From the NCBI RefSeq assembly GCF_056712565.1, contig NZ_CM160072.1: 64,000 nt of DNA. One strand, given 5' to 3'. How positions within the stretch are numbered: position 1 is the stretch's first letter; every line of letters starts with the position of its first letter. A program made the position numbers. This document shows positions 15,501-18,500 of this stretch, piece after piece.

Positions 15501-18500
15501 CGCTGGGGGTGATTGGCGTGATTTATGAAGCGCGCCCGAACGTGACGGTTGATGTTGCTTCCCTGTGCCTGAAAACCGGTAACGCGGTGATCCTGCGCGG
15601 CGGCAAAGAAACCTGTCGCACTAACGCTGCAACGGTAGCGGTGATTCAGGACGCCCTGAAATCCTGCGGCTTACCGGCGGGTGCCGTGCAGGCAATTGAT
15701 AATCCTGACCGTGCGCTGGTCAGTGAAATGCTGCGTATGGATAAATACATCGACATGCTGATCCCGCGCGGTGGGGCTGGTTTGCATAAACTGTGCCGCG
15801 AGCAGTCGACAATCCCGGTGATCACAGGCGGTATAGGCGTATGCCATATTTACGTTGATGAAAGTGCAGAGATCGCTGAAGCCCTGAAAGTAATTGTCAA
15901 CGCGAAAACTCAGCGACCGAGCACATGTAATACGGTAGAAACGTTGCTGGTAAATAAAAACATCGCAGATAGCTTCCTGCCCGCATTAAGCAAACAAATG
16001 GCGGAAAGCGGCGTGACGTTACACGCTGATGCAGCCGCGCTGGCGCAGTTGCAGGCAGGCCCCGCGAAGGTGGTGGCTGTTAAAGCCGAAGAGTATGACG
16101 ATGAGTTTCTGTCATTAGATTTGAACGTCAAAATCGTTAGCGATCTGGATGACGCCATTGCCCATATTCGTGAACACGGCACGCAACACTCCGATGCGAT
16201 CCTGACCCGCGATATGCGCAACGCCCAGCGTTTTGTTAACGAAGTGGATTCCTCCGCTGTTTACGTTAACGCCTCTACGCGTTTTACCGACGGCGGCCAG
16301 TTTGGTCTGGGGGCGGAAGTTGCGGTAAGCACACAAAAACTCCACGCGCGCGGCCCAATGGGGCTGGAAGCTCTGACCACTTACAAGTGGATCGGCATTG
16401 GTGATTACACCATTCGTGCGTAAATAAAACCGGGTGATGCAAAAGTAGCCATTTGATTCACAAGGCCATTGACGCATCGCCCGGTTAGTTTTAACCTTGT
16501 CCACCGTGATTCACGTTCGTGAACATGTCCTTTCAGGGCCGATATAGCTCAGTTGGTAGAGCAGCGCATTCGTAATGCGAAGGTCGTAGGTTCGACTCCT
16601 ATTATCGGCACCATCAAGAAAATCAATAACTTAGCTTAACTTCTCTAAGAAATTGTATCTTCTGTTATCACTTACAAACGCCTATACGTTGTTATGGGCT
16701 TTGGTAGTTTAACACGTATGGGCGAGTAGTTCCCAGGCTCAACCTCGTAACAAGTTCCTTTGAAGCTGGAAGACGTGCCACCGTCTCTAAACCTTCTACC
16801 AAAACTCTTAGCAAGATGTTCCACACCTGGCGCGGTGTCCAATGATGCTACACGTCGTGAGACGTTGCAGAGGATAAACAGGCTAAATGATGGGAAGAGT
16901 TTTAAGTGCAATAGTGGATTAAAGCCCACCTCTTCAAAACCTAACTTGATCGGGAAAGAATCAAGCTCTAGCACGGTTTCGTCCACCGGAGTACAACGGG
17001 TGCCTGATAAGAGAAGAACTGCTAAGACTTCATAGCTTTTGTGAAAAAGCCCTTTTTAGTGGATACGCCTACGGCGCTTATTTTTTGGTATAACCATCAA
17101 AGGCGCTTTATGGCTCCTATTGTCTTGAAAATGTATCTTTACTTGTATTGTGTTTTATGCGTAGTCTCCCTGTGTAGTATGTAACTTGTTAATTTTCATA
17201 TGAATACAGAGGCAACACGATGAAAAACATTGCAGCTATAAAACGTAATAACCGCAAGATTCACGCTCGTAAGTTCCTGTCTACGCCAGAGGGAAAAGCC
17301 TGGCTAGAGCGAAAGCAACGAGAGAACGAAGAAAGAAAACTCCTTAGTGAGTTGAAATGGCTTAGAGAGGATTTCTGAAAATCTCCAGAACGCAACAAGA
17401 CGCATTCTAACGCTGTTTTCATTGCTTGGTATAGGGATGTATATGTGATGTGTGTTTAATGCGTCTGTGAGCTTGTTTTGTGCCTTATTTTGCATTTTCA
17501 TAATGCAGAAGAGAACACGGAAAACCTTAAAATTAATTATTGGGGTATTTAAGGCTATTTTAAGGGGATTTAAGGGTATTAAACTTGATTTAATTGATTA
17601 AAATATAAACAGATAGCTCTGCATCTTATTGATTTATAAGGTTATTTTTGAATAAAGGTAAATAAAAAATAAATAGCCATAAATAGCTATAAATAGCTAT
17701 AAATACATCTAAATACATATGAATCCCCTCCCTTATGGCTAGATTGCGAGAGGTGCTTAACGCGATTTTTAGCGCCCCCCGATCTGGAAAATCCAGAATC
17801 CCCAAATATCAAGGAGGCATTACGCCTCCTCTTCTTCCTTCTTAATTCGCTGTACCGTTGAAGGAGCAACATTAAAGCTCTCGGCGGTTTTACGCACTGA
17901 CACGCCAGCGGAAAGGGCTTTCTTTATACCTTCCCTATCTACTGCCTTCCCTTTACCACGCTTTGTAGGATTGACGGCTTGCGCTTCTCGTTTACGCTCT
18001 AACATCAGTTCACGTTCACACGTTGCAACTGCCGACAACATCGTAAGCATCATCTTTCCCATCGCGCTTGTAATGTCAGCAATGATTCCTTCTTTGTGAA
18101 ATCGAACAATTACACCTCGATTATTAAGTTGTTCCACTAAGGCAAGAATGTCTAAGGTGTTACGCCCTAAACGATCAAGAGAGTGGACGTGTAAGGTGTC
18201 GCCTTCTCTCAGATAGGATAAACACGCCTGCAATCCTGGACGGTTAGTGTCTTTACCTGACAGCTTATCTTCAAAGACTTTATCAAGCGTTACTCCTGCA
18301 AGCTGGCGATCAGTGTTCTGATCTACAGTGCTCACACGCTTATAACCGATATTGCTCATAAAATCCTCTTAATGTATCGATTTGGCACTACTTCAATGCA
18401 AATGAGTATATCGTATTCATTTGGTCTGTTTCAAGCCTTATAGGTACGGAATATTACACGATTTAGATGTATTCATTTGGTATGCCTAATGGATACACAG

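What the first reader, a model, noticed from the sequence alone, without database searches (positions are those of the whole stretch)
17541..18481. A second, serine-type recombinase in a 12.7-kb element, flanked by helically phased repeats
The element already has a tyrosine integrase for thrW, yet it also encodes a 179-aa resolvase/invertase-type serine recombinase (17820-18359).

- Downstream of its 3' end lie five exact-phase 10-bp repeats (AAATAGCYAT/AAATACATNT, 17671-17720) and three ATTT(T)AAGG repeats at a 10-11 bp phase (17547-17575).
- Upstream of its 5' end lie two copies of GTATTCATTTGGT (18413-18425 and 18469-18481).
- ATTTGGCA / TGCCAAAT motifs lie at 18380, 18553 and 18583, the last one inverted.

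Possible roles are multimer resolution of a replicating circle, inversion of a regulatory or host-range segment, or a second integration specificity. The 10-bp phasing suggests intrinsically bent DNA or one-face protein binding.
Basis: partly seen in the sequence, partly recalled or inferred. Interest (0 to 1): 0.5.

Follow-up and report, generated by a model that had tools for sequence, protein, structure and literature searches.

The report
Resolvase with res site in satellite
The second recombinase of this 12.7-kb E. coli island is an ordinary resolvase with its own three-part target site just upstream, while the phased repeats downstream belong to a separate cassette that carries a copy of the genome-end cut site of phi92-like phages, which suggests the island is a satellite of those phages.

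Summary
ORF 17820-18359 (-) is an intact small serine recombinase under purifying selection. These form three inverted pairs at 18373-18497, ordered gene-III-II-I as in the Tn3/gamma-delta res site, and they overlap the gene's predicted promoter. Homologues 57-84% identical keep the layout with different half-site words.

- **Role:** no second crossover site exists in 64 kb and about 20 related loci are collinear. Integration sites follow the tyrosine integrase. An autoregulated resolvase/res module that resolves multimers or cointegrates therefore fits best. Inversion and second integration are not supported.
- **Optional module:** 155 of 5426 E. coli genomes carry it. About 726 carry the neighbouring iteron region.
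- **Downstream repeats:** the 10-bp repeats exist but do not go with the recombinase. They are kept where it is absent and absent where it is present.
- **Helper link:** the repeats adjoin 17744-17816, which copies the direct-terminal-repeat boundary of phi92-like phages (39/40 nt). Other variants match phAPEC8-like phages. The island's 609-aa protein resembles only these phages' tape-measure proteins.

The recombinase is a new member of a known kind. The satellite context is the interesting part.

The parts
16595..16614 (+). attL core: the 3' end of thrW, one copy of the 20-bp direct repeat that bounds the island
   Evidence: tRNA-Thr(CGT) lies at 16538-16613. The 20-bp exact repeat recurs at 29340-29359.
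17543..17580 (.).
   Evidence: TRF gives period 10, 3.7 copies, 79% matches. The middle unit varies among relatives. No recombinase half-site lies here.
17670..17719 (.). Five tandem 10-bp units TAAATAGCYA / TAAATACATN. Function is unresolved; a packaging-site accessory or an array for a small DNA-binding protein is proposed.
   Evidence: TRF gives period 10 with 96-100% matches. Copy number is 4-6 in relatives, and one relative has a 9-nt deletion that breaks the phase. The array is present in O26:H11 11368, which lacks the recombinase, and absent from L005 and L011-L013, which have it. It has no significant similarity to phi92-like phage DNA.
17744..17816 (-). Copy of the inner boundary of the direct terminal repeat (DTR) of phi92-like phages. 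The position equivalent to the phage genome-end cut lies between 17757 and 17758, in the motif CGCGTTA^AGCAC read on the - strand. Candidate packaging or cut site.
   Evidence: The match to phi92-like phages is 39/40 nt, E 3e-9 to 6e-11. In phi92 it straddles position 343, the end of the annotated 343-bp DTR. In phage BI-EHEC the 328-bp DTR ends in the same motif. The L013 variant matches phAPEC8-like phages and the L005 variant matches phi92-like phages.
17812..17830 (.). Hairpin AGGAGGC-ATTAC-GCCTCCT overlapping the recombinase stop codon; terminator-like on the + strand
   Evidence: The hairpin is conserved in all recombinase-bearing variants.
17820..18359 (-). Small serine recombinase (resolvase type), 179 aa
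   Evidence: Pfam Resolvase E 1.1e-33. Best solved relatives are gamma-delta and Tn3 resolvase at E about 1e-28, then Gin at 3e-26. R8, S10, R40, D62, R63 and R66 align with gamma-delta R8, S10, R45, D67, R68 and R71. dN/dS is 0.04-0.22.
18373..18410 (.). res subsite III: half-sites 18373-18385 and 18398-18410, 12-bp spacer. It ends 13 bp from the ATG.
   Evidence: The same 13+12+13 layout next to the ATG is seen in the 2-kb plasmid L098.
18405..18434 (-). Predicted sigma-70 promoter of the recombinase, TTGAAA-18-TATACT, overlapping subsites II and III
   Evidence: 10 of 12 matches. TATACT is kept in L094. Autoregulation is inferred by analogy with Tn3/gamma-delta tnpR.
18412..18448 (.). res subsite II: half-sites 18412-18424 and 18436-18448 (the second is degenerate, 9/13), 11-bp spacer
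   Evidence: A 13+11+13 counterpart was read by eye in L100 from the sequence printed; one search returned its left half-site only.
18468..18497 (.). res subsite I, the presumed crossover site: TGTATTCATTTGG-TATG-CCTAATGGATACA (13+4+13)
   Evidence: The same 13+4+13 layout with TGT/ACA at the outer ends occurs about 100-110 bp from the ATG in L094, L095 and L100, with changed inner bases.
18553..18591 (.). Inverted repeat ATTTGGCA-N23-TGCCAAAT; not part of res; function unknown
   Evidence: It is conserved in E. coli relatives, including those without the recombinase, but not in L094 or L095.
18900..20130 (.). Repeat-dense core of the ORF-poor 2.4-kb stretch (18360-20750), with at least five families of mostly palindromic iterons; presumed origin and regulatory region of the island
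   Evidence: No Rfam family matches. The region occurs in 726 of 5426 E. coli genomes.
21176..21829 (+). Replication-initiator-like protein (lambda O-like N-terminal HTH)
   Evidence: PHROG 270 and 391, 'replication initiation protein' and 'O-like'; Pfam HTH_36, weak.
27919..29253 (-). Tyrosine integrase next to attR
   Evidence: PHROG 1 integrase, E 4.7e-33. RefSeq annotates it as a tyrosine-type recombinase/integrase.
29340..29359 (+). attR core: the second copy of the 20-bp direct repeat

Best explanation
ORF 17820-18359 encodes a resolvase that acts on the 125-bp res site directly upstream of it (18373-18497).

**Proposed mechanism.**
- Dimers bind three subsites. These are site I (13+4+13 bp, the crossover site, farthest from the gene), site II (13+11+13) and site III (13+12+13, next to the ATG).
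- When two res copies lie in direct repeat on one circle, the accessory sites trap a synapse. Site I is then cut and rejoined at its centre (TATG), which splits the molecule. Such a circle could be a dimer or multimer of the excised, replicating island, a tandem integrant or a cointegrate.
- Subsites II and III overlap the gene's own promoter, so the protein probably represses itself.

**Status in the family.** The gene plus res is an optional 675-bp cassette (17812-18486). It sits in a plasmid-like replication module (iterons plus an O-like initiator) of a family of integrative, satellite-like islands.

**The downstream repeats** are not its substrate. They belong to a neighbouring cassette (about 17382-17811). 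That cassette ends in a copy of the terminal-repeat boundary of phi92-like phages and most likely serves packaging by a helper phage.

**Shown versus inferred.**
- Shown: the protein family, intact catalytic residues, purifying selection, site architecture and its conservation, absence of a partner site or inversion, and modular distribution.
- Inferred: actual resolution activity, autoregulation, and what resolution is for in the island's life cycle.
For: **Protein.**
- Pfam Resolvase matches at E 1.1e-33.
- The best solved relatives are gamma-delta and Tn3 resolvases, aligned end to end with catalytic R8, S10, R40, D62, R63 and R66 in place.
- dN/dS against five relatives is 0.04-0.22.

**Site.**
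- Five clear half-sites and one degenerate one lie within 125 bp. They form the only three inverted pairs in the island, against a mean of 0.6 pairs in shuffles of the whole window.
- The order gene-III-II-I and the total length (125 bp, against 114 bp for gamma-delta res by my recollection) resemble Tn3-type res.
- A promoter-like TTGAAA-18-TATACT overlaps sites II and III.

**Comparison.**
- In L094 and L095 (recombinase 83-84% identical) the DNA beyond site I is unrelated. The stretch from site I to the ATG keeps all the half-sites and spacers.
- In L100 (63%), L098 (57%) and L099 (55%) the upstream 130 bp holds 4-6 copies of a different, locus-specific TGTA-type 13-mer. These include a 13+4+13 site about 100 bp from the ATG and a 13+12+13 site next to it.

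**Distribution.**
- Gene and res travel together: 155 genomes cover 100% of 17820-18500.
- The nearest relatives outside the family are on 2-6 kb plasmids.
- The module sits next to iterons and an O-like initiator.
Against: - No activity data exist.
- Sequence alone does not separate resolvases from invertases here: gamma-delta scores 104 bits and Gin 96 bits. PHROGs labels the family 'DNA invertase'.
- Half-site d (18436-18448) is weak, at 9/13.
- The position-weight matrix used was trained on the same six sites.
- A satellite packaged from concatemers would not obviously benefit from resolving multimers.
- About four fifths of family members do without the cassette: 155 genomes carry it, against 726 with the neighbouring region.
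- No free plasmid form of the island was seen in complete E. coli genomes.
Confidence: 0.62

Rival explanations
1. The recombinase circularises packaged island DNA after injection, as Cre/lox does for phage P1. If the packaged linear DNA is terminally redundant and the redundancy includes res, recombination between the two end copies would circularise the island without host RecA.
For: The gene and res lie only 0.06-0.74 kb from the phage-like genome-end site. They lie on the side that corresponds to the terminal repeat in the phage. From my own knowledge, the pac-lox-cre neighbourhood in P1 is arranged in a similar way.
Against: Known res-type resolvases need negatively supercoiled substrates (established knowledge, not tested here). 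No second boundary-like site that would place res inside a terminal repeat was found. Most family members lack the cassette.
Confidence: 0.12
2. It is a DNA invertase that flips a regulatory or host-range segment, as Hin, Gin, Cin and Pin do.
For: The best PHROG label is 'DNA invertase'. Gin scores nearly as well as gamma-delta resolvase. The island encodes tail-related proteins: a tape-measure-like protein and a Dit-like protein.
Against: The 64-kb window has only one crossover-type palindrome, and it sits in a three-subsite array next to the gene. The tail genes lie 7 kb away and have no such sites. About 20 related loci are collinear, with no inverted segment.
Confidence: 0.04
3. The cassette is a hitch-hiking module acquired from a small plasmid. 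It maintains itself but contributes little to the island.
For: The cassette is optional, has constant breakpoints (17811|17812 and 18486|18487) and has a 383-bp alternative allele. The nearest outside relatives are on 2-6 kb plasmids, including 2-kb circles that carry only the recombinase.
Against: Strong purifying selection acts on the gene. It is intact in all 155 genomes. A diverged allele (63%) occupies the same slot in another family member, which suggests the function was recruited repeatedly.
Confidence: 0.12
4. It provides a second integration or excision specificity for the island.
For: No direct evidence. The only argument is that a second recombinase is present.
Against: The protein is 179 aa and lacks the large C-terminal domain of serine integrases. 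Recombinases 97-98% identical sit in islands at thrW, tRNA-Gly and the thiM riboswitch. The thrW and thiM islands were checked and each has its own tyrosine integrase. No res-like DNA occurs in the phage collection.
Confidence: 0.03

Closest known systems
Tn3 / gamma-delta resolvase (TnpR) with its res site
   Same: The protein is a small serine recombinase with a C-terminal HTH, and these are the best solved relatives (E about 1e-28). The res site lies next to the gene and has three dimer-binding subsites of different spacer lengths. The crossover site is farthest from the gene, TGT lies at the outer end of each half-site, and the promoter sits inside res.
   Different: There is no transposase and there are no terminal inverted repeats, so this is not a transposon. 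Half-sites are 13 bp. The subsites measure 30, 37 and 38 bp, against 28, 34 and 25 bp for gamma-delta (the gamma-delta values are from memory). The host element is an integrative, phage-satellite-like island.
Stand-alone plasmid multimer-resolution resolvases (for example ParA/res of RK2/RP4, and the resolvases of small plasmids)
   Same: The resolvase and res form a self-contained cassette next to a replication module. The closest outside homologues (55-57% identical) are on 2-6 kb enterobacterial plasmids with similar upstream repeat arrays.
   Different: Here the replicon is normally integrated in the chromosome by a tyrosine integrase. No free plasmid form was seen in 5426 complete genomes.
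Cre/loxP of phage P1
   Same: A site-specific recombinase and its site lie close to a packaging site in an element with a plasmid-like replicon. Dimer resolution and cyclisation are both conceivable roles.
   Different: Cre is a tyrosine recombinase with a simple 34-bp site and needs no supercoiling. This is a serine resolvase with accessory sites.
Hin / Gin / Cin / Pin DNA invertases
   Same: They share the protein superfamily and similar length, and Gin scores E 3e-26.
   Different: Invertases use two simple inverted sites that flank a segment, plus an enhancer. Here there is one composite site and no invertible segment.
Phage satellites that carry their helper's packaging signal (P4 with the P2 cos site; cos-type SaPIs and PICIs)
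   Same: The island carries a short non-coding copy of a helper-phage genome-end sequence. Variants match different helper genera. It also has an integrase, its own replication module and some virion genes.
   Different: The presumed helpers are large virulent myoviruses with short direct terminal repeats (Stephanstirmvirinae). The island encodes its own major capsid, tape-measure-like and Dit-like proteins. No helper dependence has been shown.

Membership tests
Small serine recombinase, resolvase type (resolvase/res system) | N-terminal catalytic domain with the serine nucleophile and conserved Arg/Asp residues | tested here: met
   Pfam PF00239 matches at E 1.1e-33. R8, S10, R40, D62, R63 and R66 align with gamma-delta R8, S10, R45, D67, R68 and R71.
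Small serine recombinase, resolvase type (resolvase/res system) | C-terminal helix-turn-helix DNA-binding domain | tested here: met
   The alignment to gamma-delta resolvase runs to residue 175 of 179, through its HTH. Pfam HTH_7 (21.2 bits) and HTH_38 (24.3 bits) match but fall just below their cut-offs.
Small serine recombinase, resolvase type (resolvase/res system) | A res site next to the gene, with a crossover subsite plus accessory dimer-binding subsites | tested here: met
   There are three inverted pairs of 13-bp half-sites at 18373-18497. The layout is conserved upstream of homologues 57-84% identical, with changed half-site words. This is sequence evidence only.
Small serine recombinase, resolvase type (resolvase/res system) | Resolution of directly repeated res sites in cis on supercoiled DNA | not testable with these tools
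   This needs an in vivo or in vitro recombination assay.
Tn3-family transposon | A tnpA transposase and 38-bp terminal inverted repeats associated with tnpR/res | tested here: not met
   The ORF list of 8000-31000, the family scans of the island's main ORFs and the RefSeq annotation show no transposase in the island. The cassette is only 675 bp.
DNA invertase (Hin/Gin/Cin/Pin) | Two inverted crossover sites that flank an invertible segment | tested here: not met
   No second site I-like palindrome occurs in the 64-kb window.
DNA invertase (Hin/Gin/Cin/Pin) | Both orientations of a segment seen among related genomes | tested here: not met
   About 20 related loci are collinear with the window. 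These are consensus assemblies, so population-level minor isoforms were not examined.
DNA invertase (Hin/Gin/Cin/Pin) | A Fis-dependent recombinational enhancer | not tested
   No reliable sequence test was available.
Large serine integrase | A protein of 400-700 aa with the recombinase and zinc-ribbon C-terminal domains | tested here: not met
   The protein is 179 aa. NCBIfam hits to XisF and Ccr cover only the catalytic domain and fall far below their cut-offs.
Phage satellite (helper-dependent, packaged island) | Carries the helper's packaging or genome-end recognition sequence | tested here: inconclusive
   17744-17816 copies the DTR inner boundary of phi92-like phages, and other variants copy that of phAPEC8-like phages. 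Only one of the two boundaries was found. Function is untested.
Phage satellite (helper-dependent, packaged island) | Lacks a full virion gene set but interferes with or borrows helper morphogenesis | tested here: inconclusive
   The island has a major capsid protein, a tape-measure-like protein and a Dit-like protein. No terminase, portal, sheath or tube gene was recognised.
Phage satellite (helper-dependent, packaged island) | Induction, packaging and transfer by a helper phage | not testable with these tools
   This needs infection experiments. Virus-collection hits were mostly prophage calls from isolate genomes and say nothing about packaging.

The most novel reading that the evidence does not exclude
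The 12.7-kb island, and a family found in about 13% of complete E. coli genomes, is an undescribed kind of satellite of large virulent phi92/phAPEC8-like myoviruses (Stephanstirmvirinae). It is recognised by the helper's packaging machinery through a copied terminal-repeat boundary (CGCGTTA^AGCAC) that comes in helper-genus-specific variants. It supplies its own capsid, tape-measure-like and distal-tail proteins. The 10-bp phased array and the optional resolvase/res cassette that flank the copied boundary would be parts of its packaging and circularisation region.
Probability: 0.4. Interest if true: 0.75.

Novelty: new member of a known kind. Interest (0 to 1): 0.45.

Why it matters
**The recombinase.** On its own, the resolvase/res cassette is ordinary. 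It adds a well-defined site for a little-studied clade of small-plasmid-type resolvases, with six half-sites, their spacers and a likely self-repressed promoter. It also shows that satellite-like islands can carry plasmid-style multimer-resolution modules.

**The context.** The finding's span also contains a near-exact copy of the genome-end boundary of phi92-like phages. Together with a tape-measure homologue found only in those phages, and a 235-bp stretch 99.6% identical to one of them, this points to a widespread satellite family of large virulent coliphages. Those phages are used in phage therapy collections. No paper in the searchable library describes such a satellite.

**Experiment.** If confirmed, this gives a simple test: infect a carrier strain and map the packaged ends.

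Tried and rejected
1. **Similarity of the phased repeats to phage DNA.** By eye, the AAATAG and ATTTAAGG repeats resembled words next to the outer DTR boundary of phi92-like phages. A short-word BLAST found only chance-level matches (best E 0.23), so I dropped this.

2. **A second boundary site.** I looked for a second phage-like DTR boundary in the island, which would define its own terminal repeat. There were no significant matches. The GCTYAAC motifs at 16634, 16737, 22961 and 25452 have no supporting context.

3. **Origin of the recombinase-less allele.** I asked whether it arose by crossover at site I. The right breakpoint (18486|18487) lies inside half-site f, 3-4 nt from the central dinucleotide, not at it. 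The replacing DNA has no convincing partner half-site. This is suggestive at most.

4. **The 16-nt complementarity** between 17699-17714 and 18461-18476. It is near chance for this AT-rich region, and most relatives weaken it by a T-to-G change.

5. **Distant recombinase relatives.** The genome-contig scan returned mostly 42-57% relatives in unrelated taxa, which were of no use for site comparison. P0007 was not on record. L096 lies in an unrelated context without the upstream sites.

6. **Other library searches.**
   - Rfam found no known RNA in 16400-21300 apart from the tRNA.
   - PADLOC found no defence-system match for the seven island proteins scanned, including the recombinase.
   - The phage collection holds no DNA match to the recombinase or res beyond weak catalytic-domain hits in Vibrio phages.

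7. **IMG/VR scan for the boundary 20-mer.** The hits were mostly prophage calls from isolate genomes and say nothing about packaged ends.

8. **Curvature prediction** for the 10-bp array was not attempted, because I had no trusted wedge parameters. Only periodicity was measured.
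Full report
**1. Where we are**

The window is E. coli chromosome and is 100% identical to strain GPEC548. tRNA-Thr(CGT), thrW, lies at 16538-16613. A 20-bp direct repeat at 16595-16614 and 29340-29359 bounds a 12,745-bp island. A tyrosine integrase sits at the far end, at 27919-29253 (-).

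From left to right the island holds:
- a small ORF;
- the serine recombinase;
- a 2.4-kb stretch with no annotated gene that is packed with iterons;
- a + strand operon.

The operon encodes a lambda-O-like initiator (21176-21829), a lambda-gpE-type major capsid protein (23929-24957), a 609-aa tape-measure-like protein (25263-27092) and a Dit-like tail protein (27126-27839).

**2.

- The 10-bp array is a true tandem repeat: five units at 17670-17719, with 96-100% matches.
- The ATTTAAGG array is weaker, at 79% matches.
- The two GTATTCATTTGGT copies are exact.
- ATTTGGCA is not enriched in the window as a whole (6 found, 4.2 expected).

**3. The recombinase**

The ORF matches Pfam Resolvase at E 1.1e-33. 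It aligns over its whole length with gamma-delta and Tn3 resolvase (E about 1e-28), slightly better than with Gin invertase (3e-26). R8, S10, R40, D62, R63 and R66 align with the gamma-delta active-site residues.

Against five relatives, dN/dS is 0.04-0.22, so this is a working gene. Sequence similarity alone does not say whether it is a resolvase or an invertase.

**4. The upstream repeats are a res site**

The pattern with up to 3 mismatches hits 28 times in 64 kb, about the number expected. Five of those hits lie within 125 bp just upstream of the ATG. With a sixth, degenerate copy they form three head-to-head pairs:

| Subsite | Coordinates | Layout (half-site + spacer + half-site) | Position |
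|---|---|---|---|
| III | 18373-18410 | 13+12+13 | next to the ATG |
| II | 18412-18448 | 13+11+13 | middle |
| I | 18468-18497 | 13+4+13, centre TATG | farthest from the gene |

These are the only such pairs in the island. The only other two in the 64-kb window are low-scoring pairs at 37055-37102, and shuffles of the whole window give 0.6 on average.

The order gene-III-II-I matches the Tn3/gamma-delta res site as I know it. So do the TGT at the outer end of each half-site and the overall length. A promoter-like TTGAAA-18-TATACT on the recombinase strand overlaps sites II and III, which suggests self-repression.

Comparison supports the reading.
- In two metagenomic contigs with 83-84% identical recombinases, the DNA beyond site I is unrelated. 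The stretch from site I to the ATG keeps all the half-sites and spacers.
- Upstream of homologues 55-63% identical (an island copy in an IncF plasmid, a 2-kb plasmid and a 5.8-kb plasmid), the same 130 bp holds 4-6 copies of a different, locus-specific TGTA-type 13-mer.
- Those copies include a 13+4+13 site about 100 bp from the ATG and a 13+12+13 site next to it.

The sites therefore change together with the protein while the layout stays the same.

**5. Which role**

*Inversion* needs a second crossover site in inverted orientation. There is none. The window's island, the O26:H11 island and 18 further related loci are all collinear.

*A second integration specificity* is unlikely.
- The protein is 179 aa and has no integrase C-terminal domain.
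- Recombinases 97-98% identical occur in islands at thrW, a tRNA-Gly gene and the thiM TPP riboswitch. A 63% allele occupies the same slot in an island copy inside an IncF plasmid.
- The thrW and thiM islands each carry their own tyrosine integrase. The far ends of the other islands were not examined.

No phage in the collection carries res-like DNA, so recombination with a helper genome through res is not supported.

That leaves resolution between directly repeated res copies, which is what this architecture does in known systems. Such copies would arise in multimers of the excised, replicating circle, in tandem integrants or in cointegrates.

The biological purpose is the weak point. A satellite packaged from concatemers gains nothing obvious from resolving them. 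The cassette is also optional: 155 of 5426 genomes carry gene plus res, always together and intact, while 726 carry the adjacent iteron region.

The alternative allele replaces 17812-18486 with 383 bp, at constant breakpoints. A Cre/lox-like circularisation role is a live but weaker alternative.

**6. The downstream repeats are a different matter**

The O26:H11 island lacks the recombinase but keeps both downstream arrays. Islands L005 and L011-L013 have the recombinase but not the arrays. So the arrays are not recombinase sites.

Among relatives the 10-bp array has 4-6 units, and one relative has a 9-nt deletion that breaks the exact phase. AA periodicity there is in the top 1% of the window but is not exceptional. 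The ATTTGGCA inverted repeat at 18553/18584 also lies outside the recombinase cassette and persists without it.

**7. What the arrays sit next to**

*The copied phage boundary.* The 40 nt at 17744-17783 match phi92-like phages (Justusliebigvirus) at 39/40. Weaker similarity runs to 17816.
- In phi92 the match straddles position 343, the inner end of the annotated 343-bp direct terminal repeat.
- In the Phapecoctavirus BI-EHEC, comparing the two record ends gives a 328-bp terminal repeat that ends in the same motif, CGCGTT(A)^AGCAC.

*Helper-matched variants.*
- Islands with a different left cassette (L013) carry a variant that matches phAPEC8-like phages (81.5% over 81 nt).
- The thiM island (L005) carries a third variant that matches phi92-like phages.

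*Other links to these phages.*
- The 609-aa protein has phage homologues only among Stephanstirmvirinae tape-measure proteins (134 records, 31-36% identity).
- Window 20946-21180 is 99.6% identical to phi92-like phage muut.

I found no paper on satellites of these phages.

*Inference.* The island is a satellite of these phages, and the cassette at about 17382-17811, including the 10-bp array, is part of its packaging region. The array itself has no counterpart in the phage. If it binds a protein, that protein is more likely the island's own. This step is inference only. Only one of the two terminal-repeat boundaries could be found in the island.

**8. Verdict**

- The recombinase with its upstream repeats is a new member of the resolvase/res kind, housed in an unusual element.

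Noticed in passing
window 17744-17816: A near-exact copy (39/40 nt) of the inner boundary of the direct terminal repeat of phi92-like phages lies right after the recombinase stop codon. Other family members carry variants that match phAPEC8-like phages, which suggests a helper-matched packaging or cut site.
   Followed up: partly
L006 (phi92), L101-L103 (BI-EHEC and phi92 ends): In both phage genera the two terminal-repeat boundaries fall in similar short motifs: outer TGTTG^AGC and inner GCGTT(A)^AGC. This suggests a GTTR^AGC cut-site consensus for this phage subfamily.
   Followed up: partly
window 25263-27092, 23929-24957, 27126-27839: The island encodes a 609-aa protein whose only phage homologues are Stephanstirmvirinae tape-measure proteins. 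It also encodes a gpE-type capsid protein, closest to 95-100 kb Pseudomonas myoviruses at 24-26% identity, and a Dit-like tail protein. No terminase, portal, sheath or tube gene was recognised.
   Followed up: partly
window 20946-21180: This 235-bp stretch, which holds a 55-aa ORF just upstream of the initiator gene, is 99.6% identical to phi92-like phage muut and 98.3% identical to phage inny. That points to recent DNA exchange between island and phage.
   Followed up: partly
window 18900-20130 (within the ORF-poor 18360-20750): This region is unusually dense in repeats, with at least five families of mostly palindromic iterons. Examples are TACCCCCACAGAATTCTGTTA x7, ACCTAGGAAATGATTTCC x3-5, TAGGTCATAGTGAACTA x4 and TGTAACG..GTTACA x3, followed by AT-rich repeats. 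Copy numbers differ between relatives. The region occurs in 726 of 5426 E. coli genomes, and no Rfam family matches it.
   Followed up: partly
L003/L005 (strain SI-NP020), L008-L010, L011, L100: The same recombinase-iteron-initiator module occurs in islands at other sites. One sits in the thiM TPP riboswitch, duplicating the riboswitch, and carries a different integrase and a GmrSD gene. Others sit at a tRNA-Gly gene, next to another tRNA gene and inside an IncF plasmid.
   Followed up: partly
L098 (pDETEC86, 1985 bp) and similar 1.95-2.0 kb records: These circular 2-kb 'plasmids' from E. coli and Salmonella have a single annotated gene, a 57%-identical serine recombinase with res-like repeats upstream. 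The same sequence also occurs inside 104-kb and 201-kb plasmids.
   Followed up: no
L004 1338-1720 (O26:H11 11368): The recombinase-less allele is a 383-bp segment with a possible 53-aa ORF. Its right breakpoint lies inside res half-site f, 3-4 nt from the centre of site I.
   Followed up: partly
phage records MG065639, MG065645, MG065656, MG065689, MG065650: Records named 'Campylobacter phage' (A150, A145, C3, A110a, B15) carry the same terminal-repeat boundary sequence and tape-measure gene as E. coli phi92-like or phAPEC8-like phages. Their host labels may be wrong.
   Followed up: no
window 20611-20639: A near-consensus sigma-70 promoter, TTGACA-17-AATAAT with an upstream TG, lies at the start of the + strand operon of the island.
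   Followed up: no
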